The notes under the pieces: generated by a model
The model's database searches: none
What the model was told of the DNA's origin: nothing
Seen by the model: only the letters and a program-made list of their open reading frames with translations
Assembly: GCA_045117135.1 (NCBI GenBank)
Contig: JBGUNA010000086.1
Location: 2,638-66,637, forward strand
Length of the DNA: 64,000 bases
DNA from: Candidatus Limivicinus sp.
Lineage (GTDB): Bacteria > Bacillota > Clostridia > Oscillospirales > Oscillospiraceae
Reading direction: 5' to 3'
Part shown: piece by piece, positions 25,724 to 38,678 of the stretch
Layout of the letters: each line of letters starts with the position of its first letter
Position numbering within the stretch: position 1 is the stretch's first letter
Program-made: the position numbers and the translations under genes

Positions 25724-26443
25724 ATGAAAAAACTGATTGCACTGCTTCTCTGCACAGTTCTGCTGGCAGGGATGACGGTATGCTTCGCAGATTCTGATAC
25801 ATGGACCTGCGAGAGCTGCGGAAGAGAAAGCAGCGGGAAATTCTGCCCGTACTGCGGAGCAGCAAAACCGGAAGAGGTGATTTTCCCGGAGGCACCGGCG
25901 GGGACTTTCTCCATCCGAAACGGGATCCGCTGGGGTATGAGCGGGTATGAAGTGGAGACAAGGGAAGCAAACCCGAAAAGTGATGAGGAGAGATATTATT
26001 CCACCGAGGATGGGTATGTGATTACAAATCTCTACTATGACTCGTACGAGAAAAAAGCGAGTATATTCCCAGCCAGCATCAACTATCAGTTCTCCAGGGA
26101 TAAGCTGTTCATGGTTACATACCACGCAGAGTATGAAGGATCCTATCTGGAAAACCTTGAGATGAACACCTATCTGAAGAATGCAGTGACGACAAAATAT
26201 GGTAGCGGACATGAGGCCACATTTGGAGAGAGAGAAAAAATCAGGAATGTAATGAATGTGATAGATAATTATTTCTATGATGAGGATATCAAACAAATCA
26301 CAGTATGGGATCTCCCGGAGGACACCACAGCGGCTTTCATCGAGGGGTATTATCTGGAAGACTGCAGGCTTGTGTACTTCCACTATAGCACCATGCTGAA
26401 CGGCCTCCCGGAAGACGGTGTTTATAACACCAACGGACTGTGA
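25724..26443 (+). CDS. Secreted protein P3: signal peptide + zinc ribbon A + unknown domain
   Basis: N-terminus: MKKLIALLLCTVLLAGMTVCFA DSDT WTCESCGRESSGKFCPYCGAAKP (ribbon at 25802-25870). RBS is GAAAGGA. Confidence 0.7.
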   Translation: MKKLIALLLCTVLLAGMTVCFADSDTWTCESCGRESSGKFCPYCGAAKPEEVIFPEAPAGTFSIRNGIRWGMSGYEVETREANPKSDEERYYSTEDGYVITNLYYDSYEKKASIFPASINYQFSRDKLFMVTYHAEYEGSYLENLEMNTYLKNAVTTKYGSGHEATFGEREKIRNVMNVIDNYFYDEDIKQITVWDLPEDTTAAFIEGYYLEDCRLVYFHYSTMLNGLPEDGVYNTNGL

Positions 26444-26523
26444 TTCTCTTTGTAAAAAACTTGAACACAAACATTTTGTCACTTATAATAGGAAATACAA
26501 AATTTGAAAGGATGATCCCGATT

Positions 26524-27393
26524 ATGAAAAAACTGTTCGCATTACTCCTCGTATTCTGCATGCTGCTGTCGGTAACAGCGATTGCTGAAGCAATCGGCCC
26601 TGAGGAAGCTATTGACGCTGCCTTTGACGAGTGCCCCATTGATATTATGCTTGCAGAGGGAATCAAAGTGTCCCAGACAGGCGGAAACTGGAAAATCTCC
26701 TTCGGGTCAAAATACGGAGATTTCAGTTATGTGGTTGATGGATCGACCGGAGAAATCCTGGAAAAGAATGAGCCGGAAATCGATGAAAAGCCGGCCGATC
26801 CGGCATCAGATGCCCTTGACGCCTGCTTTGACGCCCTGGATGGATATAACGGGGGAGCAGAAAACATCAAGCTCAGCATGAAAACTATTGACGGCGATTT
26901 GAATGTCGCTGTGACATTTGACTGGAATGGCAAAGCATATGATATGCTTTACAATACTGTTACCGGAGAAGTAATTGATAATAGCGAGGAGACAGAAGAT
27001 TCTTATTATCTAATCGGCTCCAGTGAAAACACCTTTGCTGGGCTGCATAAGAGAATGTGCATCAATCTTGACCTGAAGACCAACCCAATTCCGGAACCGG
27101 ATGAGGATATGGGAACATTTGGCTCGGAAACAGTGCATGCGAAAGTGCTGAAGGATGATTCTGAATCTTACGAGTATATTGGATATTGCCGTGGATGGGA
27201 CGGAAAAGACCGTTATATATGCTGGGCCTGGACAGGATTACACGAGGATGGGTCTACCATCGGCATGCTTGTCTTCTATACGCCGGATGGGAAGTATCTC
27301 GGAAATATCCAGAGAGATCTTTCTGCAGGTACATCAACATCTTCTCACAATAGTCCATACTATGTCCCGGGCGAACCAATCAACAAGAAATAA
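26524..27393 (+). CDS. Secreted protein P4: signal peptide + PepSY-like region + shared C-terminal module X (no zinc ribbon)
   Basis: ATG at 26524 after GAAAGGA (the track ORF starts at 26440). Signal peptide: MKKLFALLLVFCMLLSVTAIAEA. The C-terminal 130 aa are a close paralog of the P5 C-terminus. Confidence 0.7.
   Translation: MKKLFALLLVFCMLLSVTAIAEAIGPEEAIDAAFDECPIDIMLAEGIKVSQTGGNWKISFGSKYGDFSYVVDGSTGEILEKNEPEIDEKPADPASDALDACFDALDGYNGGAENIKLSMKTIDGDLNVAVTFDWNGKAYDMLYNTVTGEVIDNSEETEDSYYLIGSSENTFAGLHKRMCINLDLKTNPIPEPDEDMGTFGSETVHAKVLKDDSESYEYIGYCRGWDGKDRYICWAWTGLHEDGSTIGMLVFYTPDGKYLGNIQRDLSAGTSTSSHNSPYYVPGEPINKK
27001..27390 (+). repeat. Copy 1 of the duplicated ~390-nt coding module X (C-terminus of P4)
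   Basis: SYYLIGSSENTFAGLHKRMCINLDLKTNPIPEPDE...ICWAWTGLHEDGSTIG..DGKYLGNIQRDLSAGTSTSSHNSPYYVPGEPINKK aligns without gaps, apart from one codon, to 28439-28831. Similarity is visible at the nucleotide level. Confidence 0.8.
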
Positions 27394-27418
27394 AATACTA
27401 AAACACTTCTAACACACC

Positions 27419-27447
27419 CACTCCCCTGCACATAAAACAGGGGAGTG
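27419..27447 (+). terminator. Terminator-like hairpin after P4 (weak U-tract)
   Basis: 10-bp stem CACTCCCCTG (27419-27428) / CAGGGGAGTG (27438-27447). The downstream sequence ACCTTATAT is only weakly T-rich. Confidence 0.4.
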
Positions 27448-27520
27448 ACCTTATATCCGCGATGATTCTATGGAACTGAAAGAAAAAGCTATACTGAAAA
27501 GAGAAGGAAAGGACAGAGCT

Positions 27521-28834
27521 ATGAAGAAGCTGATTGCAATCCTTTTATGCACCGTAATGCTGGCAGGTATGACAGCAAGCATCGCCATGGGGGAGAGCAG
27601 GTTTTGCCCCTATTGCGGGCAGGAATATCCTGTTGAGCAGGGTTATGCTTTCTGCCCGAATTGCGGGAAAGCGTTGCCTCAGGCTGAATCCAAACAAAGC
27701 GCAGAGACAAAAGAGCAGGTGAACAGCGAAGCTGTGGCTGTTGGGGATGTTGTGAGATTCGGCAGATACGAACAGGATAATAACCGATCCAACGGGGCCG
27801 AAGGAATCGAATGGACCGTTCTGAATATTCAGGGCAACGAGGCACTGCTGCTCAGCAAATACGGGCTGGACTGCAAAATATACTATAAATTCAAGACTTC
27901 TGTGACATGGGAGACATCTGACCTGAGGGTATGGCTGAACGGAGAATTCTTCGATTCGGCGTTTAATGCGGACGAACAGGGGAGAATCCTGACAACAAAC
28001 GTCACAGCGGACAAAAATCCCGAACACAATACCGATCCCGGCAATGACACAAAGGATAAAGTTTTCCTGCTGTCAGGCGTGGAAGTGAGCCGGTATCTGA
28101 CCGAAGAAACAGCGAAGTGCAAGGCAACGGCCTACGCATTAGCGGAAGGTGCATCTTCCGGGAAGAACGGCTATTCCTGGTGGTTCCTGCGCACACCCGG
28201 TTCAGAACAGAAAATGGTTATGATTGTAAAGACAGACGGCACGATGAATACAGGCGGCGGAGTAACCAATGGGACGGGAGCACTCGGAGTTGACCGCCCG
28301 GCAATATGGATTGATCTCAGCAACTGGGAATCCTATGAACAGCCTCCTGCACCGGCAATCCCAGCGGAAAACGTTCAGACAACTCCAATACCCGAGATAG
28401 AGACCCTTCCCGCTCCCAATGCTGAAGAAGTGACTGATTCCCCGTATGTGATCGGATCCAGTGAAAACACGTTCGCGGGTCTGCACCAGAGAATGTGCGT
28501 CAACCTTGACTTGAAGGCCAATCCGATTCCGAAACCGGATGAGAAGCTGTCAACCTACGGAACCGGTGATTATGAATACGTTAAAGTACTGAGAGATGAT
28601 AGTAAGAGCTATGAGTTCATCGGCTATGTACGCGGGGTGACAGGCGAAGACCGCTATATCATCTGGAGCTGGACAGGTCTGCATGAGGACGGATCCACCA
28701 TCAATCAGACAGTCTATTATATGCTCGATGGAAAGTACCTCGGCAATATTCAGCGTGACCGCACGGCGGGAACATCCACATCCTCCAGCCGCTGCCCGTA
28801 TTACGTCCCCGGTGAACCGATTAACAAGAAATAG
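27521..28834 (+). CDS. Secreted modular protein P5: signal peptide + zinc ribbon B + DUF6273-like domain + linker + module X
   Basis: ATG at 27521 (the track ORF starts at 27470). N-terminus: MKKLIAILLCTVMLAGMTASIAMG ESR FCPYCGQEYPVEQGYAFCPNCGKAL (ribbon at 27602-27676). DUF6273-like boxes: IEWTVLNIQGNEALLLSKY, VWLNGEFF, VFLLSGVEV, WWFLRTPG. Confidence 0.75.
   Translation: MKKLIAILLCTVMLAGMTASIAMGESRFCPYCGQEYPVEQGYAFCPNCGKALPQAESKQSAETKEQVNSEAVAVGDVVRFGRYEQDNNRSNGAEGIEWTVLNIQGNEALLLSKYGLDCKIYYKFKTSVTWETSDLRVWLNGEFFDSAFNADEQGRILTTNVTADKNPEHNTDPGNDTKDKVFLLSGVEVSRYLTEETAKCKATAYALAEGASSGKNGYSWWFLRTPGSEQKMVMIVKTDGTMNTGGGVTNGTGALGVDRPAIWIDLSNWESYEQPPAPAIPAENVQTTPIPEIETLPAPNAEEVTDSPYVIGSSENTFAGLHQRMCVNLDLKANPIPKPDEKLSTYGTGDYEYVKVLRDDSKSYEFIGYVRGVTGEDRYIIWSWTGLHEDGSTINQTVYYMLDGKYLGNIQRDRTAGTSTSSSRCPYYVPGEPINKK
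28439..28831 (+). repeat. Copy 2 of the duplicated coding module X (C-terminus of P5)
   Basis: SPYVIGSSENTFAGLHQRMCVNLDLKANPIPKPDE...IIWSWTGLHEDGSTIN..DGKYLGNIQRDRTAGTSTSSSRCPYYVPGEPINKK. It is the paralog of 27001-27390. Confidence 0.8.
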
Positions 28835-28949
28835 GAAATGAGCTAATAGTATTAATCTCATCTAGATCAAAGAAAATATGGAGATTTCCAATTTACATCA
28901 TAAAACTGAAAAAAGCTCTCAAAAGAGAAGAAAAAGAAGGGAAAATGCA

Positions 28950-30788
28950 ATGAAAAAACTAATAGCATTCCTTTTATATATAATGTTGTTGGCTGGGATG
29001 ACAATTAGCTTTGCTGATGGTGAGAGTTGGATTTGCACTGAATGCGGGAAGGAAAGCGACGGAAACTTCTGCCCATATTGTGGAGCTAAGAAACCGGAAA
29101 CAGAAATAACATGTACTTCCTGCGGGGAAGTATATGCCCTGGATCTGGGTTATGCTTTCTGCCCGAACTGCGGAGCTACCTTGAAGGAACACGAGGAGTC
29201 TGCTCCCGAGGGGGAAAAATATTCCTTTTCAGTTGGTTACTGCATCTGGAACCTGAAAAAAGACCGCTTGTTGGAATATGTGGATGAGGATGACATGACG
29301 GCAGAAACACTTCCGGATGGGGATGTTTACGGGCCGGTGCTGACAGTCACCAATCTCTCTGGGGAAACAGTCAGGCCGGAAATCACAGCCACAATTAATG
29401 GAGAAGAGATTACCTGGGATCGAACAGAGTTCGGCCCATCAGAGGAATGGTCATTTGTTATAACAGAGAATTCTCCGGCGGGGGAATATGATTACACGTT
29501 TTTCGTGGATGGGAAAGAAGCGGCTTCGGGGCATTATACTGTGAAGAGCGAAGGCCCGCTCGGTGAAGATGCACCGACGATTGAATCCATTATTATGATG
29601 GGCAGTAAAGTTATCGTTACGTGGAAGGAAGTTCCCGGAGCGGAAAATTATACGGTTTATCGGTCTGAGGATAATGAAATTTACAGCAAGATCGGCCTTA
29701 CCATCCCACGGACATCATATACCTGCAAAACCTGCGAAGAAGGGAAAACCTATTTCTTCAAAGTGAGCGCAAACGGTTACGATGGTAAAGAAGGGCCCGT
29801 GAGCAAGGCAAAAAGCATTGACATTCCGGTTGATGTGTTCTCCCAGGGGAAAACAGAGGAGCCAAAACCGACTGTAAAACCTACACCGGAGCCGACTGAG
29901 GCTCCTACACCAGAACCGACGCCCGAACCTACCCCTGAACCAACTCAAATGCCTGAAGATGTCCTGAAAGCCGGAGAGAACGGAACTATTCAACTGGAAA
30001 TGGGATCAGGAACGGTTTTCACTCTTACCCCGGTTGAAGCAAGTGCATTCTGGAAACAGAGCGATAAGGTCAGCGTACGGACACGAATCGGAGATACAAA
30101 CCTGAACAACGGAGCCACTGCGACATCCGGAAGCAGCCTTATGCTGAGCACTATGAAGAATACAAAACAGTATTCAATGCCCATGGCAGCTTTTTCCTGG
30201 AAGAGTGACGTTTCTGGCGATGAAGCTGCGGGAGCAGTCGGAAAAATCGGAAGATCAACTATTCTGTTGCTTGATGGGAAATCTTATACACCACGGGTAG
30301 CCTGGAGTACGGATGAGATGGGTTGCTTCATTTTCGATTGTCCGGAGCTGCCGGAACAAGTTCCGGTTTTCCAGATTCAGGATCAAAAACTTGTTATTTC
30401 ATATGAGTTACCTGAATTGCTGGCGAAGGAAGAACCTCCTGTGAATAATGAACCGATCACGCTTCATGTCAAGACGGCCAAATATACCTTTGATGCGACA
30501 GTTGTCGATGTTACAATTGAAGACGGTCAGCTGCATGTGAGCCTGGAAATCAAGAATAACGATAAATGGGCGTTTGAGTATAATCCTCCTTTGTGCTATG
30601 CATTGATAAGCGGGAAAAAGTACGAGGTGGATACATATAATGCAACGCAGCACATTGACACAAAAGGAATCACGCTTAGTTCGCTGACCTATAATATCCC
30701 TTATAAATCAGATACGCTTCCGGACCAGGTTCTGATGGATGTATCCGGAAATGGTGACTATCAGGTGATTTGGAATAACGCAAAGTGA
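28950..30788 (+). CDS. Secreted modular protein P6: signal peptide + zinc ribbons A and B + Ig/Fn3-like domains + Pro/Thr linker + C-terminal domain
   Basis: ATG at 28950 (the track ORF starts at 28878). Signal peptide: MKKLIAFLLYIMLLAGMTISFA. Ribbon A (29028-29096): DGES WICTECGKESDGNFCPYCGAKKP. Ribbon B (29112-29183): CTSCGEVYALDLGYAFCPNCGATL. Fn3-like segment: VTWKEVPGAENYTVYRSEDN. Linker: KPTVKPTPEPTEAPTPEPTPEPTPEPTQ. Confidence 0.75.
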   Translation: MKKLIAFLLYIMLLAGMTISFADGESWICTECGKESDGNFCPYCGAKKPETEITCTSCGEVYALDLGYAFCPNCGATLKEHEESAPEGEKYSFSVGYCIWNLKKDRLLEYVDEDDMTAETLPDGDVYGPVLTVTNLSGETVRPEITATINGEEITWDRTEFGPSEEWSFVITENSPAGEYDYTFFVDGKEAASGHYTVKSEGPLGEDAPTIESIIMMGSKVIVTWKEVPGAENYTVYRSEDNEIYSKIGLTIPRTSYTCKTCEEGKTYFFKVSANGYDGKEGPVSKAKSIDIPVDVFSQGKTEEPKPTVKPTPEPTEAPTPEPTPEPTPEPTQMPEDVLKAGENGTIQLEMGSGTVFTLTPVEASAFWKQSDKVSVRTRIGDTNLNNGATATSGSSLMLSTMKNTKQYSMPMAAFSWKSDVSGDEAAGAVGKIGRSTILLLDGKSYTPRVAWSTDEMGCFIFDCPELPEQVPVFQIQDQKLVISYELPELLAKEEPPVNNEPITLHVKTAKYTFDATVVDVTIEDGQLHVSLEIKNNDKWAFEYNPPLCYALISGKKYEVDTYNATQHIDTKGITLSSLTYNIPYKSDTLPDQVLMDVSGNGDYQVIWNNAK

Positions 30789-30921: not shown

Positions 30922-32220
30922 TCAGCTTTTTGCAAAAGAGCAGTCGTTGGCGATTTCTTCTTGGTTGTCGTGCCAGATTGCAATTTTGTTTGCGATGTAA
31001 AGATAACCGGAACCATTTTCGTAATAGGTGGTACGCGTTTCTGTTCCATCGGCATTGAAATGGATAGAAGTCTTGGTGCAGTCTTCGTATGTGAGAATTC
31101 CGGCCTGGGTGAAAGTGCCGCTGAAGTTCCATTCATCCGTTTCTTCGGCACCGTTCGGCCAATGCACAGTGACTTTTTTCAATTCATCGGTTCCTTTTAT
31201 CTCGATGACAGCTTTTCCGGCAGTTCTCTCAACATAGATACCTGCATAAGTGTCAGGCTCTTCAGCAACCTGCTGCTGCGGAGCGGAAGTAGCAACCGGG
31301 GCTGCTACCTTTACGGGAGCAGAGACTTTGCTGAGGAGGTAGATGCGCCCGCCTTTTGGAATCGAATCGAGCTTCAGATCAGGGTTGATACTTGCCAGCA
31401 GATTCTCAACGGTTGCAAAATTGATCCCGTATGCTTTGCAAAGCTTACCTGCCGTATCTCCGGTAGTGATATCGTGGGAATAGACCGCGTAGACAGCATT
31501 ATCAGCTTTGGCAGAAGGGAAGAGGTAAGCTTTTCCGGTGGAAAGAGACTTGAGATTTACGACATCATTGAGAGATTTTACAAGTGCATCAATTTCAAAG
31601 GAGTATGGGGCTCCCAGGGCTTCACAGACTGTCTCAACGGTTTCGCCGGGCTCTAATTTATGCTCGACTATGAAGTATTCCAGCCTATCGCCTTCAATTG
31701 GGGGCTCAACAGTTGTGCTAATCTGCAGGAGAGGGGCATCAAGAGGGATATAAATGATCTGACGGGCTTCTATGCTGTTAAGCTCATCATCACTTTCCCA
31801 TCCGTTTAATCTTTTAATGGTTTCTTTGTAGTAATTGTAGTTCAGATGCTGTGCTTTGCAGATTTTAAACATTGTGTCGCCCTTTTTAACTTTATACTCT
31901 ATAGCATTCGCAGGGCAATTCTGGTCATGAAGGGAAACAATGGCTAGTGCATCTTCATCAGATTTGGGAAGATAAATTGTCTGCCCGATTGCCAGGGTTT
32001 CAAGAGAAATCTCTCTCGAAAAACCGTTTAGAATAAGAATTGCCGTTTTGTCAGCACTGTAATCCAAACCGAGTTTTTTACATAGGGAAACAACGGAATC
32101 GCCTTTTTTTGCAGTAACCTGCTGGGCGTATGCGGAATAGTCCGTTTCGGCAAAAGCCTGAACAGAAATGCAAGTCAAAGCGATGCAGATCAATAAAACA
32201 ATGCTTATTACTCTTCTCAT
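30922..32220 (-). CDS. Secreted protein with four LysM repeats + C-terminal beta domain
   Basis: Signal peptide: MRRVISIVLLICIALTCISVQAFA. There are four LysM-like units (VTAKKGDSVVSLCKKLG.., YKVKKGDTMFKICKAQH.., HKLEPGETVETVCEALG.., HDITTGDTAGKLCKAYG..). Confidence 0.85.
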   Translation of the reverse strand: MRRVISIVLLICIALTCISVQAFAETDYSAYAQQVTAKKGDSVVSLCKKLGLDYSADKTAILILNGFSREISLETLAIGQTIYLPKSDEDALAIVSLHDQNCPANAIEYKVKKGDTMFKICKAQHLNYNYYKETIKRLNGWESDDELNSIEARQIIYIPLDAPLLQISTTVEPPIEGDRLEYFIVEHKLEPGETVETVCEALGAPYSFEIDALVKSLNDVVNLKSLSTGKAYLFPSAKADNAVYAVYSHDITTGDTAGKLCKAYGINFATVENLLASINPDLKLDSIPKGGRIYLLSKVSAPVKVAAPVATSAPQQQVAEEPDTYAGIYVERTAGKAVIEIKGTDELKKVTVHWPNGAEETDEWNFSGTFTQAGILTYEDCTKTSIHFNADGTETRTTYYENGSGYLYIANKIAIWHDNQEEIANDCSFAKS

Positions 32221-32330: not shown

Positions 32331-32359
32331 TTGACGCTGGTTAGGTCTTGTGATACCAT
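32331..32359 (+). promoter_or_regulatory. Candidate extended -10 promoter driving the structured RNA / downstream operon
   Basis: TTGACG (32331-32336), a 17-nt spacer ending in TGa, then TACCAT (32354-32359). The predicted TSS is near 32366. Confidence 0.5.
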
Positions 32360-32431
32360 AAAGTTGTAGCTAGTGACGCTTATTTCTTGTATGGTCGCCT
32401 TACGGCGATTTGATCAGTGTCACAATTCACA

Positions 32432-32570
32432 GGGCGGATAGCTAATCAGGCTTATTTCTGATTTACCAAACCGGAGATGGAGGTTCGATTCCTCCCGGCG
32501 CACAGCGCTGTAGTTCAATGGCAGAATGCCGGTCTTCAAAGTCTGATGATATCATCCGCCTTTTTGTTTT
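32432..32570 (+). ncRNA. Structured ncRNA: a circularly permuted tRNA-like module closed by a long stem and U-tract (Y RNA / YrlA-like design). The 5' end may extend to ~32366.
   Basis: Elements in order: ACCGG 32470-74; AGAT; T arm GGAGG-TTCGATT-CCTCC 32479-95; CGGCGC 32496-501; ACA loop; GCGCTG 32505-10; TA; D arm GTTC-AATGGCA-GAAT 32513-27; G; CCGGT 32529-33. The outer helix GGCGGAT 32433-39 / ATCCGCC 32554-60 is followed by TTTTTGTTTT. No ORF fits this interval. Confidence 0.55.
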
Positions 32571-32598: not shown

Positions 32599-34674
32599 AT
32601 GAATTCCATGGAATATCCGTACCTTTCTCCAATCTATCAGGACTATCTGTTTGATAAGCATGTTCTGGTCGGGGATGAAAACCATCCGAAGGAACCTTCG
32701 GAAGCCTTCCCAACAGTATTCGCCCTCGCAAGGCTTTTTGGCATCCGAATAACCTCCGGGCAGAAACTTGCCCACAGAGAGCTGATTGAACTTGCATCAC
32801 AAAAGTTAGGCGAAGATGTACCAAAGCCGTTTTACCGCAGATTCCCGGAGAGCGTGAGGGAACTGACGCAATTCCAGCTGATTTTTGACCAGCTGCTGGA
32901 ATACTATGTTTCCTATGGAATGAATGATTTTTCAGGGGAAGGGCATTCAGTTTTTGAGAAAGACTTTGAACGCGCTGCCTTTCAGGAAGATGCGAGAATC
33001 CTTGATTTTAAAATCGTCTCCAAGGAAGAGGCAAAGAAGCTGATAGCAGAATCGGTCGATACTCTGATGCTTTCCACTCGTCCTCTGAGGCAGGATCAGA
33101 TAAATCTGGTGAAGGCTTACATACAGGAGGAAAATATCCCGGAATTTACCCATTGTGCCTGCAAGGATACCGCTATTAAACTACTCCTGGCAACGAAGGA
33201 TCTCTCTTGGCTGCGCTTTCTGCATCTATCGGATGGCATTGCCATAGTGGATGAAATGAATTATGAATGGAATGAAAGCACAGACCTGAAAAAACTGAAT
33301 CTGAAAAACCAGCAGCGTAAATTTATCTCTCAAATTCTGGACTGGTTCTTTGAAAACGGCACTCCCTCCATAAAAGCCTGTTATGAAAAAAAGGCTCTTT
33401 GGTGCAGCATTCTGCATCATACCCATTACCAGCCGAAAAACGAAGCGGCAGCACGATTCGTAAAGGGTATGCGGGGCAAGGAAAACCATTCCGCGTTATC
33501 GGCTTTTGAGAATGAAATGGGAAAGGGAGAAATAGAGAAGGCTGCTGCAGTGCTCTTACAGGAGAAAGGAAGCGGAACACTGCTCCGGAACCTGAACTAT
33601 CTGCTCAGCCGATGCCGAACAAGAGCGGAAGTGGAATCAGTGATATCCCGTATTCATACGGATAATGTTATTCTTCTGCTCCAACTTTATTTTGAATATG
33701 TGCTCTCCGCCCCGGCAGCGCGCAGGACTTTCCGATTTTCAAAGTATTCCATGCTCCATAAGCATACGGAGACGGATGAAGAGATGGCGCGAAGAAGAAC
33801 CGTTCTTCCGCGAATAATCCGGAATAGTGCGAAGGAAACGATTCTGAACACTCTGAAAGATTTGATTAAGGGGCGCCTTGGAACAGTTTACTTTGATCCT
33901 CAGCTCAACAGCCTTGCCATTCCGCTGCAGGAGGGAACATCCCTCGCTGGATTTGGGGCATTGCCGAAGGGATCCCGATTACCGCTGCCGGACGGAAAAA
34001 TCATCCGCGCTTTCACCTACTGGGAGAAAGTGAATGATATTGACCTGAGTGTGATCGGTATAAACAGGAACGGATCCAAAAGAGAGTTTTCCTGGCGTAC
34101 TATGGCATCGTCACAGAGTGATGCCATTCTTTTCTCAGGTGATGTCACACGAGGGTACAATGGTGGTTCGGAGTTTTTTGATATCAATATCGATCAGTTT
34201 TGCACGAAATATCCGGATGTCCGTTATCTGGTTTTCTGCGACAACGTTTTTTCCGGCAGTCCGTTTAAAGCATGTACCTGTACCGCAGGCTATATGCTGA
34301 GGGATCGCGTCGGATCCGGAGAAATCTTTGAGCCCAAAACGGTACAGACCTCTTATCGGGTAGACTGCGACAGTACCTTTGCACTGCTCTTTGCTTTTGA
34401 TTTGGAAACAAGTGAGTTCGTATGGCTGAATGTGGCACTGAAAGGTCAGGCAAGAATTGCAGGCACTGAGGAGATTCAGTTCGTGCTCCGCTATCTCGAA
34501 AGCACAAGGGCAATGTCGCTTCGTTCGCTGATTGAAATGATGGCACAGGAAATGACAGAAGATCCGGCAGAAGCGGATCTGATCATATCTGACAGCGAAT
34601 TGGATATTCCGACTGAAACTCCGGTCATACACAGCTATGATCTAGAGAAAATGATCGCTCTGATCAACAGATAG
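32599..34674 (+). CDS. 691-aa protein: N-terminal ~450-aa all-alpha-looking region of unknown family + C-terminal TerD-like domain
   Basis: RBS GAGAGGA. Residues ~455-620 (nt ~33961-34458) match the TerD pattern: IIRAFTYWEKVNDIDLSVIG..NG..FSW....DAILFSGDVTRGYNGGSEFFDINIDQ...VRYLVFCDNVFSG...FALLFAFDLETSEFVW. I recognise no family for the N-terminal part. Confidence 0.7.
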   Translation: MNSMEYPYLSPIYQDYLFDKHVLVGDENHPKEPSEAFPTVFALARLFGIRITSGQKLAHRELIELASQKLGEDVPKPFYRRFPESVRELTQFQLIFDQLLEYYVSYGMNDFSGEGHSVFEKDFERAAFQEDARILDFKIVSKEEAKKLIAESVDTLMLSTRPLRQDQINLVKAYIQEENIPEFTHCACKDTAIKLLLATKDLSWLRFLHLSDGIAIVDEMNYEWNESTDLKKLNLKNQQRKFISQILDWFFENGTPSIKACYEKKALWCSILHHTHYQPKNEAAARFVKGMRGKENHSALSAFENEMGKGEIEKAAAVLLQEKGSGTLLRNLNYLLSRCRTRAEVESVISRIHTDNVILLLQLYFEYVLSAPAARRTFRFSKYSMLHKHTETDEEMARRRTVLPRIIRNSAKETILNTLKDLIKGRLGTVYFDPQLNSLAIPLQEGTSLAGFGALPKGSRLPLPDGKIIRAFTYWEKVNDIDLSVIGINRNGSKREFSWRTMASSQSDAILFSGDVTRGYNGGSEFFDINIDQFCTKYPDVRYLVFCDNVFSGSPFKACTCTAGYMLRDRVGSGEIFEPKTVQTSYRVDCDSTFALLFAFDLETSEFVWLNVALKGQARIAGTEEIQFVLRYLESTRAMSLRSLIEMMAQEMTEDPAEADLIISDSELDIPTETPVIHSYDLEKMIALINR

Positions 34675-34740: not shown

Positions 34741-35445
34741 ATGACGTATGCAATCAGTGATCTTCATGGAAGAGTTGATCTTTACAGGGAAATACTGGAA
34801 AAGATTTCTTTCTGTGCAGAAGATACTCTATACATTCTCGGAGATATCGGGGACCGGAATGAAGGCGGTATTCAGATTTTCAAGCAAGTTATGGACAAGC
34901 CGAACATCCATATGCTGATGGGAAATCATGAACAGATGATGCTTGATGCAATTCTGCATCCCAATGGGGTCAGCTTAAACGGGGATGAAACCAATGAACA
35001 GCTCTGGTTCCGAAACGGTGGCAGCATAACAAAAAAAGAGTACCTGGCCGAACCGGAAGGACTGCAGTATAAGATTCTGCAGTATATTGAAAGCCTGCCT
35101 CTGAATATCGAACTGAATGTCAACGGAACAGAATATCTCCTCGTACACGGAATGCCGACCTGTATGTTTGAAAAATACGGCAGAGAGTATGAAAATGTTG
35201 CAGAATTCGCTGTTTGGGAACGGATCGAAGGCTGGATGAAGGTTGAATTTCCAGCAGATGTAATGATCTGCGGTCATACTCCGACATGGTATTACCGGGA
35301 TGAAAACCCGATGAGGATTTGCAGTGTAAGAAAAAATGTGTATGACATTGACTGTGGATGCTCCACCGGAGAGGAATTCGGTGGCCGGCTTGCCTGCCTG
35401 AGGCTTGATGATATGAAAGCTTTCTATACAGGCAATACTCTATAG
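34741..35445 (+). CDS. PPP-family (calcineurin-like) metallophosphoesterase, PrpA/PrpE/ApaH/lambda-phosphatase-like
   Basis: 234 aa. Motifs in canonical order: ISDLHG, ILGDIGDRN, MGNHE, LVHG, ICGHTP. Confidence 0.85.
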   Translation: MTYAISDLHGRVDLYREILEKISFCAEDTLYILGDIGDRNEGGIQIFKQVMDKPNIHMLMGNHEQMMLDAILHPNGVSLNGDETNEQLWFRNGGSITKKEYLAEPEGLQYKILQYIESLPLNIELNVNGTEYLLVHGMPTCMFEKYGREYENVAEFAVWERIEGWMKVEFPADVMICGHTPTWYYRDENPMRICSVRKNVYDIDCGCSTGEEFGGRLACLRLDDMKAFYTGNTL

Positions 35446-35597: not shown

Positions 35598-38500
35598 ATG
35601 GTTTGGAGGACTATGAAAGAATTCAGCTACGAGAAAATTGTAAAAGATCCGTCTGTTTTTGAGGATAACCGCCTTCCGGCACATTCGGATCATATTGCTT
35701 ACCGTACAAGAGAGGAACTTATCGCAGGGGAGACGAGCCTGCGTATGAGCCTCAACGGGATCTGGCGGTTTCATTATGCCAGAAATATCCATGCAGCACC
35801 GGAAAGATTCTGGGAAGAAAACTTCGATGCATCCGGCTGGGACATGATCCGTGTGCCCGCTCATATCCAGATGGAGGGGTATGATGTTCCTGCCTATGTG
35901 AATACGCAGTATCCGTGGGATGGGACAGACGATTTACAGCCGGGAGGAATCCCGGAAGTCTTCAATCCGGTTGCAGACTATCTGCTAGACTTTACCCTGC
36001 CGGAGCGGTTTGAAAGGGAAGACATTAATATTTCCTTTGAGGGTGTGGAAAGCGGCTTTGCCCTTTGGATAAATGGAAGATATGTCGGCTACAGTGAAGA
36101 CAGTTTTGACCCGGCAGACTTTTGTCTCACAGATGTCCTTCACAAAGGAAAAAACCGGATAGCAGTGCGCGTCTTCAAGTGGACACCGGGAAGCTGGTTC
36201 GAAGATCAGGACTTTTACCGGTTTTCGGGAATCTTTCGCGATGTCTTCCTGTACTGTCTGCCGCATACGGCGATTACAGATCTGTCTGTTGTGCCGGAAC
36301 TTGCAGATGACTATTCCTCCGGAACGGTACGCATTACTGCCAAAGGCAAAGGGAGCGGGTCTATGCATGTTCAGCTGATGAAGGATGGACAGCTGCTGGC
36401 TGAGGGCAATGCATCGGTGGGAGAAGACGGTCCATCCGCAGCGATTTTTACAGTTGATGCACCTGCGCTCTGGAGTGCGGAAATCCCGGAACTCTATCAG
36501 CTTCTGGTTGAGGTAAAGGATGAGAACGATGAAATCACTGAGGTAATGGAGCAGCAGGTCGGTTTCCGCCGGTTTGAGCTGCGTGACGGGTTGATGATGC
36601 TCAATGGTAAGCGCATTGTTTTCAAGGGTGTCGATCGGCACGATTTCAGCTCGGTGACAGGCAGAGTGCCGAACCGGGAGGAATTGGTTCAGGATCTGGT
36701 GACAATGAAGCAGAACAACATCAATGCCATCCGAACCTCCCATTATCCCAATCAGTCAGCGCTTTATGAGCTTTGCGACCGGTATGGGCTGTATGTAATC
36801 GATGAGAACAATATGGAAACCCACGGCATGTGGGACGCCATGCTGAGAGGCCAGGGGGAACCGATCCCGAAAGATCGGGAAGAGTATCTCCCAATGCTGC
36901 TCGACAGAGTAAACTCTATCTATCAACGGGATAAAAACCACCCATGTATTCTGATCTGGTCCTGCGGGAATGAGTCATACGGCGGAAAAGTCATTTTTGA
37001 AATGAGCCAGCTTTTCCGAGAGCTTGATAATACCCGGCTCGTGCACTATGAAGGCATTCGTGCTGACAGAAGCTATCCTGAGACGAGTGATATGGAAAGC
37101 CAGATGTACACGCCGGTAACGGAAATTGAGGCGTTTCTAAAAGACCATCCGGAAAAACCCTTTATTCTGTGTGAATATACCCATGCCATGGGAAATTCCT
37201 GCGGGGCGATGCACAAATACACTGAATTGTCTGACCGTGAACCACGTTATCAGGGTGGGTTTATCTGGGATTATGTCGACCAATCCATCTACAAAAAGGA
37301 TCGCTACGGGAAATGGTTTCAGGCTTACGGCGGTGACCACGGGGAACGCCCGACTGACTATAATTTTAGTGGAAACGGAATCGTTTACGGCGGTGATCGA
37401 ACCCCGTCTCCGAAAATGCAGGAAGTGCGGTTCAATTATCAGAATATTTCCGTTGAATTCACCGAGACACGATTCACGGTTAAAAATAAAAATCTCTTTC
37501 TGAATACCGATGTATACCATGCTGCAGCAGTTCTGCAGAAAGACGGAGAAGAGTGGAAATGGGAAGACCTGGAGATTTCCGTGCCTCCGCTCTCAGAAAA
37601 GAGTTTCCCGCTTCCGGATTCTTTCCTCAACGGGATGGAGACTTTGGAAAAGGCTGCCGCATCTCTTGGGAAGCCTCTGCCGGAGTTTGCTGTAACGATT
37701 TCCTTTACACTGAAGAAAGACACACTCTGGGCAAAAGCAGGGCACGAAGTTGCCTTCGGCCAGAAGATTTATAAACGCGCCTTTGTTCCATACAACTGTG
37801 AAGAGGATCTGACGGTTGTACGCGGAAACTGGAATCTCGGTGTGCGTGGAAAGAACTTTTCTGCCTTGTTTTCTGCACTGCGTCCCGGTCTGACTTCTTA
37901 TGTATATAGTGGGAGAGAACTGATTGAAGCAGTGCCCATGCCAAACTTCTGGCGTGCTCCGATTGACAATGATCGCGGGAATCAGATGCAGCACCGCTAT
38001 GCACAGTGGAAAATCGCAAGCATGTATCAGACGGTGAACGGAGGCGAGAAACCGTTCATCTATCCGGATGTGGAGGAGAAAGAACACAGTATTTCTGTTT
38101 CTTACCGGTATTATATGCCGACAGTTCCCAAAAGCAGTTGCATGCTTTCCTATGAAGTGTTCGGAGACGGGACGATTAAAACCACGCTTTCCTATGAAGC
38201 AGTACCTGGCTTGGCAGATATGCCTGAATTCGGTGTCCTCTTTAAACTTAATGCTGATTTTGACCGCGTGAAGTGGTATGGCCTCGGGCCGGAAGAGACA
38301 TATGCCGACCGGCAAAAAGGTGCCAGACTGGGAATTTATGAAAAATCAGTTCAGGAGAATCTGGCAAAATATCTTGTGCCGCAGGAATGCGGGAATAAGT
38401 GCGGGGTACGATGGGCTGAGGTTACGGACCGTAAAGGCCGCGGCATGAAATTCTTCGGGGATGAGCTGTATGTGAGTGTCCTGCCCTATACACCGCATGA

Positions 38501-38678
38501 ACTGGAGAATGCGGAACACGCCTATGAACTGCCGGAGATTCACTATACGGTTGTGCGTGTTGCGCTGCAGCAAATGGGGATAGGCGGCGATGACAGCTGG
38601 GGTGCTAAAACACATCCGGAATATCTGCTGCCGGCCGAAAAAGATCTGACTTTCTCGTTCTGGTTCTGCGGAAAATAA
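35598..38678 (+). CDS. lacZ: Beta-galactosidase, glycoside hydrolase family 2 (LacZ type)
   Basis: 1026 aa. Acid/base region: IWSCGNESYGG. Nucleophile region: FILCEYTHAMGNS (compare E. coli ILCEYAHAMGNS). The C-terminal small-chain domain is present. The alternative start ATG 35613 (MKEFSY..) follows GGAGGA. Confidence 0.9.
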   Translation: MVWRTMKEFSYEKIVKDPSVFEDNRLPAHSDHIAYRTREELIAGETSLRMSLNGIWRFHYARNIHAAPERFWEENFDASGWDMIRVPAHIQMEGYDVPAYVNTQYPWDGTDDLQPGGIPEVFNPVADYLLDFTLPERFEREDINISFEGVESGFALWINGRYVGYSEDSFDPADFCLTDVLHKGKNRIAVRVFKWTPGSWFEDQDFYRFSGIFRDVFLYCLPHTAITDLSVVPELADDYSSGTVRITAKGKGSGSMHVQLMKDGQLLAEGNASVGEDGPSAAIFTVDAPALWSAEIPELYQLLVEVKDENDEITEVMEQQVGFRRFELRDGLMMLNGKRIVFKGVDRHDFSSVTGRVPNREELVQDLVTMKQNNINAIRTSHYPNQSALYELCDRYGLYVIDENNMETHGMWDAMLRGQGEPIPKDREEYLPMLLDRVNSIYQRDKNHPCILIWSCGNESYGGKVIFEMSQLFRELDNTRLVHYEGIRADRSYPETSDMESQMYTPVTEIEAFLKDHPEKPFILCEYTHAMGNSCGAMHKYTELSDREPRYQGGFIWDYVDQSIYKKDRYGKWFQAYGGDHGERPTDYNFSGNGIVYGGDRTPSPKMQEVRFNYQNISVEFTETRFTVKNKNLFLNTDVYHAAAVLQKDGEEWKWEDLEISVPPLSEKSFPLPDSFLNGMETLEKAAASLGKPLPEFAVTISFTLKKDTLWAKAGHEVAFGQKIYKRAFVPYNCEEDLTVVRGNWNLGVRGKNFSALFSALRPGLTSYVYSGRELIEAVPMPNFWRAPIDNDRGNQMQHRYAQWKIASMYQTVNGGEKPFIYPDVEEKEHSISVSYRYYMPTVPKSSCMLSYEVFGDGTIKTTLSYEAVPGLADMPEFGVLFKLNADFDRVKWYGLGPEETYADRQKGARLGIYEKSVQENLAKYLVPQECGNKCGVRWAEVTDRKGRGMKFFGDELYVSVLPYTPHELENAEHAYELPEIHYTVVRVALQQMGIGGDDSWGAKTHPEYLLPAEKDLTFSFWFCGK

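What the first reader, a model, noticed from the sequence alone, without database searches (positions are those of the whole stretch)
32432..32570. Circularly permuted tRNA mimic with all conserved elbow nucleotides (Y-RNA/YrlA-like architecture) in an intergenic region
Read 5'->3' on the + strand, this ORF-free segment contains every element of a class-I tRNA body, but in permuted order. The elements are: ACCGG (32470-32474, anticodon-stem 3' strand); AGAT (variable loop); GGAGG-TTCGATT-CCTCC (32479-32495, a canonical T arm with T54 T55 C56 R57 A58 and G53:C61); CGGCGC (32496-32501, acceptor 3' strand); an ACA triloop; GCGCTG (32505-32510, acceptor 5' strand, 6 bp including one G:U); TA (= U8 A9); GTTC-AATGGCA-GAAT (32513-32527, a D arm with A14, G18 G19, A21); G (= 26); and CCGGT (32529-32533, a perfect complement of ACCGG). 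The acceptor end is capped by a loop and there is no CCA, so the RNA cannot be charged. The anticodon loop is replaced by the RNA's own 5' and 3' arms. Those arms are closed by GGCGGAT (32433-32439) / ATCCGCC (32554-32560), followed by TTTTTGTTTT. This matches the design described for bacterial Y RNAs of the YrlA type, which combine a tRNA-like module with a protein-binding stem. However, I see no Ro60/Rsr (TROVE+vWA), RtcB or RtcA gene anywhere in the 64 kb, and I cannot recognise a Ro-type bulged helix in the stem. This looks like a tRNA-mimicking RNA recruited by a different partner.
Basis: partly seen in the sequence, partly recalled or inferred. Interest (0 to 1): 0.85.

Follow-up and report, generated by a model that had tools for sequence, protein, structure and literature searches.

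The report
tRNA-mimic RNA paired with unknown protein
This gap between genes encodes a small RNA that folds like a transfer RNA with its parts in rearranged order. It belongs to a large RNA family I could not find described, and that family almost always sits beside one uncharacterised protein in gut bacteria and large phages, much like the known Ro60/Y-RNA particles but with a different protein.

Summary
Window 32432-32560 (+) holds a tRNA body in permuted order: T arm, loop-capped acceptor stem, D arm, and an anticodon-type stem made from the 5' and 3' segments.

It is not a chance match. A covariance model built from 41 relatives without the window sequence finds only this site in 64 kb (91.7 bits, E~1e-19). 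Across 45 homologues, five helices covary (96% of cells paired against 36-47% in slid controls). The tertiary Levitt pair 15:48 also covaries (G:C 30, A:U 14).

Rfam's YrlA model matches below threshold (35.5 against 69 bits). There is no TROVE/Ro60 gene in the window.

The tRNA mimic sits in a conserved frame: outer stem, AGCUA/RAUAUC internal loop, 7-9 bp stem, then UUACUUC. RNAs with this frame occur in tandem (1-6 copies), with or without a tRNA-like insert, just upstream and on the same strand as orthologues of the 691-aa gene. This holds for 71 of 80 species genomes and 16 of 18 phage contigs. A second, short unit lies at 32360-32431.

The protein family has about 2,500 clusters and no Pfam domain. 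Distant phage homologues carry their own versions of the frame. RtcB, RlaP and tRNA gene arrays recur nearby.

Best reading: a Y-RNA-like ribonucleoprotein with a non-Ro partner. Binding and function are inferred, not shown.

The parts
32331..32359 (+). Promoter-like site TTGACG-17 nt-TACCAT with TG upstream of the -10 box. It would start transcription a few bases before unit 1.
   Evidence: Consensus scan. A -10-like box lies 7-28 nt upstream of AGCUA in 57 of 141 units, against 11 of 141 in control windows. This is a consensus match only.
32360..32431 (+). Unit 1, a short framed RNA with no tRNA body. Short P1 UUGU 32364-32367 pairs with ACAG 32429-32432. AGCUA is at 32368-32372. P2 is GUGACGC 32373-32379 with GUGUCAC 32417-32423. 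UUAUUUC is at 32380-32386. The inner hairpin is 32393-32410. AAUUC is at 32424-32428.
   Evidence: Regex frame scan. Fold. R1 gives 19 bits, E 2e-4 in a local unfiltered search. Analogous short units are seen in most loci.
32433..32439 (+). Unit 2, P1 5' strand GGCGGAU. It pairs with 32554-32560.
   Evidence: P1 covaries in all 6 pairs.
32440..32444 (+). Unit 2, invariant AGCUA: the 5' side of the frame's internal loop.
   Evidence: Invariant in 45 of 45 aligned units. Conserved in gut-phage units.
32445..32453 (+). Unit 2, P2 5' strand AUCAGGCUU. It pairs with AAGUCUGAU at 32539-32547.
   Evidence: P2 is 98% paired, and 7 of 8 pairs show double changes.
32452..32458 (+). UUAUUUC (family consensus UUACUUC). 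This is the most widely conserved element of the frame.
   Evidence: Variants are CUUACUUC (Weasels2), AUCCUUC (RcXuper), UUCCUUCU (L081) and YUUCAU (WXIN).
32470..32474 (+). Anticodon-type stem, 3'-strand equivalent ACCGG. It pairs with CCGGU at 32529-32533.
   Evidence: own-partner against swapped-partner control.
32475..32478 (+). Variable loop AGAU. U32478 is position 48 and pairs with A15 (32518) as the Levitt pair.
   Evidence: Positions 15:48 are G:C in 30, A:U in 14, and other in 1 of 45.
32479..32495 (+). T arm GGAGG-UUCGAUU-CCUCC.
   Evidence: G53, T54, T55, C56, A58 and C61 are invariant.
32496..32510 (+). Acceptor-type stem CGGCGC/GCGCUG capped by the triloop ACA. There is no free 5' or 3' end and no CCA.
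   Evidence: All 7 pairs covary.
32511..32528 (+). U8 and A9, then the D arm GUUC-AAUGGCA-GAAU, then position 26.
   Evidence: The window carries a compensated U-A pair in the D stem where the family consensus is C-G. U8 and A14 are invariant.
32529..32533 (+). Anticodon-type stem, 5'-strand equivalent CCGGU.
32539..32547 (+). P2 3' strand AAGUCUGAU.
32548..32553 (+). GAUAUC (family consensus RAUAUC): the 3' side of the frame's internal loop.
32554..32560 (+). P1 3' strand AUCCGCC.
32561..32570 (+). U-rich tract UUUUUGUUUU after P1. It is a possible 3' end or terminator.
   Evidence: T-runs follow only 37 of 139 units and 21 of 71 last units, so this is not a defining feature.
32599..34674 (+). 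The 691-aa protein 'X', the proposed partner. The predicted structure has an N-terminal alpha/beta part, a helical repeat at about 142-425, a beta-sandwich at about 427-620 with conserved acidic motifs, and a small C-terminal domain.
   Evidence: No Pfam, PADLOC or PDB sequence hit. PHROG phrog_33734, unknown function. AF2 pLDDT 77. 2,478 clusters at 50% identity. Framed RNAs are adjacent in 71 of 80 genomes and 16 of 18 viral contigs.
34741..35445 (+). A 234-aa calcineurin-like metallophosphoesterase. It is a lineage-specific companion of X.
   Evidence: Pfam Metallophos, E 2e-12. It is 81% identical and directly downstream of X in the 78%-identical relative L246. It is not conserved family-wide.

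Best explanation
Window 32360-32570 encodes two small non-coding RNAs of one family. I could not find this family in Rfam 15 or in the searchable literature.

Each RNA is built on a common frame. The frame is an outer stem P1, an asymmetric internal loop AGCUA/RAUAUC, a 7-9 bp stem P2, and then single-stranded UUACUUC. The distal end of the frame carries a variable insert.

In the flagged RNA (32432-32560) the insert is a complete tRNA body joined to the frame through its anticodon-type stem. Its acceptor end is closed by a loop. It can therefore adopt the tRNA L-shape but cannot be aminoacylated.

The most likely mechanism is as follows:
- The frame is the binding site for the 691-aa protein encoded immediately downstream. 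This is inferred from linkage and from co-variation of frame and protein lineage.
- The insert presents a tRNA look-alike to enzymes or toxins that recognise tRNA shape, such as RtcB ligase, RlaP, modification enzymes or anticodon nucleases. This is inferred from neighbourhoods.
- The pair would then work as a ribonucleoprotein in tRNA/RNA damage surveillance or repair during phage-host conflict. This follows the logic of Ro60 with YrlA/YrlB Y RNAs, but with a different protein and a different recognition motif.

Shown: the RNA structure, its conservation, and its linkage to the protein.
Inferred: the physical binding, that the RNA is released as a stable species, and the cellular role.
For: Structure and tRNA mimicry
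- Five helices covary.
- The anticodon-type stem beats the swapped-partner control.
- The Levitt pair covaries and the elbow nucleotides are invariant.
- YrlA is the best Rfam match for the window and for every relative tested.
- The leave-one-out model gives a single hit at 91.7 bits.

Linkage to protein X
- R1 gives 141 hits in 81 sources. All are on the gene's strand and almost all lie within about 500 nt upstream.
- The frame motif occurs in 71 of 80 genomes: 142 motifs in 70.9 kb upstream, against 14 in about 1.04 Mb elsewhere.
- 16 of 18 viral contigs carry 3-6 tandem units.
- The 78%-identical relative has the orthologous RNA at 95 bits.

Linkage survives deep divergence, and the frame changes with the protein lineage
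- Rhodococcus phage Weasels2: RNA at 65.7 bits, just downstream of its homologue.
- RcXuper: 48 bits, upstream.
- WXIN: five hairpins with a GCUC/UUUCC loop and YUUCAU.
- L081 and LpeD carry their own variants.

Discrete-RNA behaviour
- In L041, eight units each have their own TATAAT box and T-run.
- -10 boxes are enriched before units.
- The RNA lies downstream of the gene in L023 and Weasels2.

RNA-repair and tRNA context
- RtcB is adjacent in 7 of 80 genomes and in Weasels2.
- RlaP is near the homologue in RcXuper, Xoo-sp13 and L246.
- The module is embedded in tRNA gene arrays in L044 and L047 and in many phages.

Precedent
- YrlA RNAs are tRNA mimics encoded on the same strand within 4 kb of Ro60 (PMC4201824; bioRxiv 10.1101/312249).
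Against: - There is no direct evidence of binding, of a stable processed RNA, or of expression.
- Protein X has no recognised RNA-binding domain. It has no significant match to Ro60 or to any solved structure.
- In most loci the last unit ends 5-15 nt before the gene's ribosome-binding site, and only about 30% are followed by a T-run. That also fits a cis-acting leader.
- RtcB and RlaP adjacency is a minority feature, and neither gene is in this window.
- Many units carry no tRNA-like insert, so tRNA mimicry is not essential to the family.
- RNA-first database scans were uninformative.
Confidence: 0.6

Rival explanations
1. Cis-acting autoregulatory leader. The framed hairpins are operators in the 5' untranslated region of the X mRNA. 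X binds them to repress or activate its own translation or termination. The tRNA-like insert would be a secondary elaboration, or a sensor of a tRNA-binding factor.
For: The units lie on the gene's strand, directly upstream. In most loci P1 ends 5-15 nt before the Shine-Dalgarno sequence. A promoter-like site precedes the first unit. In the window a U-tract lies between RNA and gene, which could act as an attenuator.
Against: The RNA lies downstream of the gene in L023 and Weasels2. Up to eight units occur, each with its own promoter-like box and T-run, up to 1.5 kb from the gene. A full tRNA tertiary signature with a covarying Levitt pair is unnecessary for an operator. Inserts differ among tandem units. 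This rival is compatible with, and does not exclude, a trans RNP role.
Confidence: 0.2
2. RNA-protein toxin/antitoxin-like or abortive-infection pair, with type III TA logic. A tandem RNA array upstream of a protein gene yields RNA units that neutralise the protein until infection or RNA damage disturbs the balance.
For: The architecture of promoter, tandem RNA units, occasional terminator and protein gene on one strand resembles ToxIN-type loci (my own knowledge). In L246 the locus lies among TIR, STK-WD40 and RlaP genes. Homologues occur in phages.
Against: The units are diverged paralogues with different inserts, not near-identical repeats. X is about 690 aa with no recognisable nuclease domain. 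There is no PADLOC hit. Many genomes have a single unit.
Confidence: 0.08
3. A true but very divergent Ro60/Y RNA system. X would be a cryptic TROVE-type protein in which a TerD-like beta-sandwich replaces the vWA domain, and the RNA would be a divergent YrlA.
For: The RNA's best Rfam match is YrlA. hhalign's only aligned stretch places three conserved TROVE motifs (LLRLSH.KP, LLRNLG, IHPxxxL) colinear with LLHHIHY, LRNLNY and IVLIQLL in X. X combines a helical repeat with a domain carrying conserved acidic motifs (my reading), in a layout similar to Ro60. RtcB linkage resembles the Salmonella rsr-yrlBA-rtcBA arrangement (PMC7790460, my own knowledge).
Against: hhalign probability is 0.2%, P 0.27. 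No Pfam TROVE hit in 33+3 members. Foldseek against the PDB, which holds Ro60 structures (1YVP and 2NVO are in the PDB sequence set), shows nothing at E<0.03 and no Ro60 in the top 50. The Ro-binding motif GNCGAAN0-1G is not conserved.
Confidence: 0.1
4. Rearranged remnant of an ordinary tRNA gene, or two abutting tRNA fragments, with no function.
For: The module often lies in or near tRNA gene arrays. Tandem tRNAs can give weak partial hits to the model.
Against: There are compensatory changes in every helix, including the capped acceptor stem, which tandem tRNAs cannot form. The frame is conserved. Linkage to X is conserved across phyla and phages.
Confidence: 0.01

Closest known systems
YrlA-type bacterial Y RNAs with Ro60/Rsr (Rfam RF02553; Chen et al. 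2014, PMC4201824; Wang et al. 2018, bioRxiv 10.1101/312249)
   Same: - tRNA mimic in the order T arm, loop-capped acceptor, D arm, joined to a protein-binding stem through the anticodon-type stem.
- No CCA end.
- Conserved tRNA tertiary nucleotides and a covarying 15:48 pair.
- Encoded on the same strand next to the partner protein gene.
- Accompanied by shorter sister RNAs that lack the tRNA body (as YrlB is).
- Recurrent RtcB linkage.
- Also present in phages.
   Different: - Below the Rfam gathering score (35.5-49 against 69 bits).
- The stem carries AGCUA/RAUAUC plus UUACUUC instead of GNCGAAN0-1G.
- The adjacent protein is not detectably TROVE/vWA.
- Up to 6-8 tandem units.
- Some frames hold a non-permuted tRNA body attached by its acceptor end.
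- Hosts are mainly Lachnospiraceae/Oscillospiraceae and large phages.
Deinococcus radiodurans Yrn1 and metazoan Y RNAs
   Same: The modular logic is shared: a conserved protein-binding stem plus a variable effector module. Some units here carry only a T-arm-like hairpin, as Yrn1 does (PMC4201824).
   Different: The binding motif and the protein differ. No PNPase link was seen.
Type III toxin-antitoxin RNA arrays (ToxI/ToxN type; my own knowledge)
   Same: A tandem array of structured RNA units upstream of, and on the same strand as, a protein gene. Sometimes a terminator lies between them. Found in phage-conflict contexts.
   Different: The units here are 55-140 nt, diverged and modular. The protein is large and has no nuclease signature. 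No defence-model hit.
Circularly permuted tRNA genes of Cyanidioschyzon merolae, and two-piece or permuted tmRNA (my own knowledge; Rfam RF04321)
   Same: The 3' half of a tRNA body is encoded before the 5' half.
   Different: Those precursors are processed into molecules with free acceptor ends that can be charged. Here the acceptor is closed by a 3-9 nt loop with no CCA, and no tag reading frame exists. The tmRNA models score at most 12 bits.

Membership tests
YrlA / bacterial Y RNA (RF02553) | tRNA-like domain in the order T arm, closed acceptor-type stem, D arm, with tRNA tertiary nucleotides | tested here: met
YrlA / bacterial Y RNA (RF02553) | Reaches the curated Rfam gathering score (69 bits) | tested here: not met
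   The window scores 35.5 bits. Eight relatives score 36-49 bits. No hit at gathering threshold in the 64 kb.
YrlA / bacterial Y RNA (RF02553) | Encoded within about 4 kb, on the same strand, of a Ro60/TROVE orthologue (PMC4201824) | tested here: not met
   No TROVE in the window: tblastn best E is 0.05, and a TROVE profile gives no hit at E<=10. The adjacent protein has no Pfam TROVE match. hhalign against Ro60/Rsr gives probability 0.2%.
YrlA / bacterial Y RNA (RF02553) | [quoted passage not shown] | tested here: not met
   The P1 sequence is variable. The conserved elements are AGCUA, UUACUUC and RAUAUC.
YrlA / bacterial Y RNA (RF02553) | Bound by Ro60/Rsr in vivo; Psi55 and D modifications | not testable with these tools
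   Needs RIP, CLIP or modification mapping.
Canonical tRNA gene | Cloverleaf in 5'-to-3' order with a free acceptor end and a 7-nt anticodon loop | tested here: not met
   ARAGORN finds none. No Rfam tRNA hit at gathering threshold. The acceptor is capped by ACA.
tmRNA / permuted tmRNA | tRNA-like domain plus a tag-peptide reading frame and pseudoknots | tested here: not met
   cyano_tmRNA scores 12 bits, E 0.34, over the T arm only. ARAGORN finds no tmRNA.
TROVE/Ro60 protein family (for the 691-aa partner) | TROVE HEAT-repeat ring plus vWA domain, detectable by profile or fold | tested here: inconclusive
   Pfam and PDB sequence searches find nothing. Foldseek against the PDB has no Ro60 in the top 50. 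hhalign gives P 0.27, but three TROVE motifs are colinear.
TerD domain (for the C-terminal beta-sandwich of the partner) | Significant match to Pfam TerD PF02342 or to TerD structures | tested here: inconclusive
   One of 33 members matches at E 0.096. One homologue is named 'TerD family protein' by NCBI, and a BFVD match is named 'tellurium resistant like'. No TerD structure appears among the top 50 Foldseek PDB matches shown. The DxDLS and SGD...E..D motifs are my own reading of the sequence.
Type III toxin-antitoxin | Near-identical short direct repeats, plus a small endoribonuclease toxin known to defence-system models | tested here: not met
   The units are diverged and modular. No PADLOC hit.

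The most novel reading that the evidence does not exclude
This is a Ro60-independent, Y-RNA-like ribonucleoprotein family. A roughly 690-aa helical-repeat/beta-sandwich protein (about 2,500 sequence clusters, no characterised member) binds a modular set of small RNAs through a conserved AGCUA/UUACUUC frame. The frame displays tRNA mimics, permuted or not, or other inserts. The particle acts on tRNA damage, repair or decoying in conflicts between gut Clostridia and their large phages.
Probability: 0.5. Interest if true: 0.9.

Novelty: new variant of a known kind. Interest (0 to 1): 0.8.

Why it matters
Bacterial Y RNAs are so far defined by Ro60. The function of the YrlA tRNA mimic, and the factor that reads its conserved D/T elbow, are still unknown (bioRxiv 10.1101/312249).

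A second protein family that has independently, or very anciently, acquired the same RNA design would show that tRNA-mimic scaffold RNAs are a general strategy rather than a Ro peculiarity.

It would give a function handle to a large orphan protein family found in gut and rumen Clostridia and in jumbo or tRNA-rich phages.

It would also offer comparative leverage. There is one RNA design, two protein partners, and a shared association with RtcB, RlaP and tRNA arrays. That comparison could help find what the tRNA mimic recruits.

Practically, the frame motif and models R1/R2 could be used to annotate many intergenic regions that Rfam 15 left unannotated in the loci tested here.

Tried and rejected
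1. Rfam at gathering threshold over the 64 kb gave nothing.
2. PADLOC, NCBIfam, Pfam and PDB sequence searches of protein X gave only a partial NCBIfam match to the uncharacterised 'MXAN_6230/SCO0854 RING' family. No paper mentions those locus tags.
3. Foldseek of the AF2 model against the PDB returned only generic helical-repeat noise. The BFVD search was the productive one.
4. The metallophosphoesterase as a universal partner was rejected. It is conserved only in the window's close lineage.
5. No universal protein neighbour other than X was found in genomes or phages.
6. RNA-first scans were uninformative.
   - A 14-base frame pattern in viral contigs gave 120 chance matches, none with X.
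   - A strict frame-plus-T-loop pattern gave 0 viral matches.
   - The same strict pattern gave 18 metagenome matches. 17 looked like chance or coding sequence. One true-looking unit (L245) lay on a contig too short to show a neighbour.
7. TROVE homology by hhalign, with 3-sequence and 19-sequence Ro/Rsr profiles, was not significant.
8. The P1 plus U-run as a general terminator was rejected as a family feature, since only about 27-30% of units have it.
9. Literature searches for YrlA, TROVE+TerD, and RtcB+tRNA-like+Clostridia found no description of this RNA or protein. A catalogue of about 10,000 anonymous phage RNA candidates (PMC10690425) might contain some units, but its supplements were not available. 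Burroughs & Aravind 2016 (PMC5062991) and Sim et al. 2020 (PMC10870794) could not be read, so prior mention there cannot be excluded.
Full report
**1. The observation**

- P1: GGCGGAU 32433-32439 pairs with AUCCGCC 32554-32560.
- Anticodon-type stem: ACCGG 32470-32474 pairs with CCGGU 32529-32533.
- Variable loop: AGAU.
- T arm: GGAGG-UUCGAUU-CCUCC, 32479-32495.
- Acceptor-type stem: CGGCGC/GCGCUG, closed by ACA, 32496-32510.
- U8 and A9, then the D arm GUUC-AAUGGCA-GAAU at 32513-32527.
- A U-rich tract at 32561-32570.

No ORF of 50 aa or more covers the segment. ARAGORN finds no tRNA or tmRNA in the whole window. Rfam finds nothing at curated thresholds.

With relaxed thresholds the only meaningful Rfam match is YrlA (RF02553) at 32447-32548. 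It scores 35.5 bits, E 3e-6, against a gathering score of 69.

Thermodynamic folding gives z-scores of -3.2 to -3.5. It recovers P1, P2, the T arm and the acceptor stem. It does not recover the D arm or the anticodon-type stem.

**2. It is a conserved RNA, not a chance cloverleaf**

The downstream 691-aa protein has more than 1,000 close homologues, mostly from Lachnospiraceae, Oscillospiraceae and other Clostridia. I fetched 80 species-level genomic loci.

A frame-motif scan found 139 framed units in 71 of 81 sources. I aligned 45 tRNA-like units (A2).
- RNAalifold and pair counting give five helices: P1, P2, T, acceptor and D.
- 96.3% of cells are paired, against 36-47% when partners are slid.
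- The covariation score is 0.68 against 0.08-0.15.
- 25 of 30 pairs show double substitutions, and 0 of 500 shuffles reach the observed values.

The anticodon-type stem could not be fixed in one alignment register, so I tested it separately. The contiguous helix averages 3.6 bp with a sequence's own partner and 2.0 bp with partners swapped between sequences. Helices of 4 bp or more occur in 47% against 13%.

The tertiary Levitt pair covaries: G15:C48 in 30, A15:U48 in 14 (the window is A:U), and one exception. U8, A14, G53, T54, T55, C56, A58 and C61 are invariant.

A model built without the window sequence (R2) finds 32432-32560 as the only hit in 64 kb, at 91.7 bits and E about 1e-19.

**3.

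The closing arms are themselves conserved. The frame is P1, then an internal loop with invariant AGCUA on the 5' side and RAUAUC on the 3' side, then a covarying P2 whose last two pairs are U-A, then single-stranded (U)UACUUC.

The same frame encloses other inserts.
- Simple loops, giving hairpins of about 55-70 nt.
- A lone T-arm-like hairpin.
- In some genomes, a tRNA body in normal order attached by its acceptor end (L025:2792-2924, L054:597-730, L041:2423-2559).

Units occur in tandem. Among the 80 loci, 20 have one unit, 32 have two, 18 have three and 1 has four.

The window has two units. A short one lies at 32360-32431 (frame motifs at 32368 and 32380; 19 bits with R1 in a local search). 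The flagged tRNA-like one follows it. A promoter-like TTGACG-17-TACCAT site lies just upstream at 32331-32359.

**4. Linkage to the 691-aa protein**

Model R1 gives 141 hits in the 81 sources. All are on the gene's strand and nearly all lie within about 500 nt upstream.

A loose frame motif occurs 142 times in the 70.9 kb lying up to 1 kb upstream of the gene. It occurs 14 times in the remaining sequence of about 1.04 Mb, counting both strands.

The 78%-identical relative has the orthologous RNA at 95 bits.

The linkage holds at much greater distance.
- Foldseek against predicted viral structures gives full-length matches (E 8e-39 to 7e-21) to phage proteins.
- tblastn finds homologues in Rhodococcus phage Weasels2, Mycobacterium phage WXIN, Rhodobacter phage RcXuper, Ruegeria phage RpAliso, Xanthomonas phage Xoo-sp13, Lactobacillus phage LpeD and Salicola phage SCTP-2.
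- Weasels2 has a permuted tRNA-like RNA (65.7 bits, with CUUACUUC) about 165 nt downstream of its homologue.
- RcXuper has one about 500 nt upstream, at 48 bits.
- 16 of 18 IMG/VR contigs carrying the gene have 3-6 tandem framed units upstream.

More distant homologues have units of the same architecture but with their own sequences.
- WXIN has five hairpins, CAGGCUC..P2..YUUCAU..P2'..UUUCCCUG.
- L081 has four units with UUCCUUCU.
- LpeD has two units with GCUUACUUCU.

The frame sequence changes with the protein lineage while the architecture stays the same. That is what direct recognition predicts. It is not proof of binding.

**5. The protein**

X has no Pfam, PADLOC or PDB sequence match. 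It falls in PHROG 33734, of unknown function. It partly matches an uncharacterised NCBIfam family.

A profile search counts 2,478 clusters at 50% identity with E<=1e-3.

AlphaFold (pLDDT 77, pTM 0.67) predicts four parts:
- an N-terminal alpha/beta part;
- a helical repeat at about 142-425;
- a beta-sandwich at about 427-620;
- a small C-terminal domain.

The beta-sandwich carries invariant acidic motifs (D480, D482, S513-G514-D515, E525, D528, D601). By my reading these resemble TerD calcium sites, but the Pfam TerD match is marginal.

No solved structure matches.

I tested TROVE homology against human, Xenopus and Deinococcus Ro60 and 16 further Rsr proteins. hhalign is not significant (P 0.27). 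Its single aligned stretch does place three conserved TROVE motifs colinear with conserved motifs of X. I treat that as a lead only.

No TROVE protein is encoded anywhere in the window.

**6. Context**

There is no universal protein neighbour. Recurrent neighbours are:
- RtcB, adjacent in 7 of 80 genomes, twice flanking both sides, and 3 kb away in Weasels2;
- RlaP, next to the homologue in RcXuper and Xoo-sp13 and in the island of the close relative;
- tRNA gene arrays around the module, in L044 and L047 and in many phages;
- metallophosphoesterases in a few lineages, including the window's own (34741-35445, 81% identical in L246).

L246 also carries two TIR proteins and an STK-WD40 protein. 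The window itself has no RtcB or RlaP.

**7. Trans RNA or leader?**

Evidence for discrete RNAs:
- L041 has eight units, each with its own TATAAT box and T-run.
- -10-like boxes are enriched just upstream of units, 57 of 141 against 11 of 141.
- The RNA lies downstream of the gene in L023 and Weasels2.
- The window's unit 2 is followed by a U-tract.

Evidence for a leader:
- In most loci the last unit ends 5-15 nt before the Shine-Dalgarno sequence.
- Only about 30% of last units have a T-run.

Co-transcription followed by processing, as for the Salmonella rsr-yrlBA-rtcBA operon (my own knowledge), would reconcile both sets of evidence. I cannot test it.

**8. Interpretation**

Best-supported reading (confidence 0.6): a Y-RNA-like ribonucleoprotein with a non-Ro partner. 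The frame binds X. The insert, here a non-chargeable tRNA mimic, engages tRNA-recognising factors in RNA damage or repair during phage-host conflict.

Shown: structure, conservation and linkage.
Inferred: binding, processing and role.

Rivals:
- cis-autoregulatory leader, 0.2;
- cryptic TROVE system, 0.1;
- type III TA-like pair, 0.08;
- tRNA remnant, 0.01.

**9. Comparison and novelty**

It works like YrlA/YrlB with Ro60 (PMC4201824; bioRxiv 10.1101/312249). It fails three defining features of that family: the Rfam threshold, TROVE adjacency and the GNCGAA motif.

I found no description of the RNA or the protein in the searchable literature. Two key papers could not be read.

I rate it a new variant of a known kind, bordering on a new RNP class. 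Interest 0.8.

Noticed in passing
window 32360-32431 (+): A second, short framed RNA (AGCUA 32368-32372, UUAUUUC 32380-32386, inner hairpin 32393-32410) lies immediately 5' of the flagged RNA. It is preceded by a promoter-like TTGACG-17-TACCAT at 32331-32359.
   Followed up: yes
L025:2792-2924, L054:597-730, L041:2026-2163, 2423-2559, 2794-2927: In MAGs labelled Chloroflexi, Leptolinea or Flexilinea, the same frame encloses a tRNA-like body in normal (non-permuted) order. It is attached by its acceptor end and exposes an anticodon-type loop. ARAGORN calls one 'tRNA-Ile(aat)' and two 'tRNA-???'.
   Followed up: partly
L041:1490-2930: Eight tandem units alternate between permuted and non-permuted tRNA-like inserts. 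Each has its own TATAAT-like box and T-run, as if each were a separate small transcription unit.
   Followed up: partly
L084:3729-4113 (Mycobacterium phage WXIN); L081:1720-2040; L083:3360-3540 (Lactobacillus phage LpeD): Distant phage homologues of the protein are preceded by tandem hairpins of the same architecture but with lineage-specific frame sequences (GCUC/UUUCC with YUUCAU; UUCCUUCU; GCUUACUUCU). This suggests RNA-protein co-evolution.
   Followed up: partly
L246:1-18082 (relative with 78% identical protein): The RNA-X-metallophosphoesterase module lies in an island with RlaP, a PTP-SAK-type phosphatase fragment, a 1,277-aa Ser/Thr kinase-WD40 protein and two TIR-domain proteins.
   Followed up: no
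L044:67-5952, L047:2693-3177; phage loci L089, L090, L092, L101, L102, L082, L085: The RNA-X module is embedded in large tRNA gene arrays, 28 tRNA genes in L044, both in bacterial MAG contigs and in phage genomes.
   Followed up: partly
L081:808-1108: A human-gut phage contig carries a tmRNA gene (94 bits) and several tRNAs directly upstream of its homologue of protein X.
   Followed up: no
window 32599-34674, residues about 268-368 of the protein: The conserved motifs LLHHIHY, LRNLNY and IVLIQLL line up colinearly with the TROVE motifs LLRLSH.KP, LLRNLG and IHPxxxL of Ro60/Rsr. The profile comparison is not significant (P 0.27).
   Followed up: partly
L007:1073-1201, L013:286-416, L025:2472-2606, L082:5963-6093: A subset of permuted units has, 5' of the variable loop, a local hairpin with a 7-nt loop CUCUUAA or CUUCUAA. 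This looks like an anticodon loop (CUU or UCU), and it competes with a very short anticodon-type stem.
   Followed up: no
window 26440-30788 (+) and 30922-32220 (-): The upstream neighbours are zinc-ribbon/DUF6273/fn3 proteins and a LysM protein. lacZ (GH2) follows the metallophosphoesterase at 35598-38678. None is conserved next to the module.
   Followed up: partly
L024:6530-6625: A c-di-GMP-I riboswitch (62 bits) lies about 1.8 kb downstream of the X gene in one Lachnospiraceae MAG.
   Followed up: no
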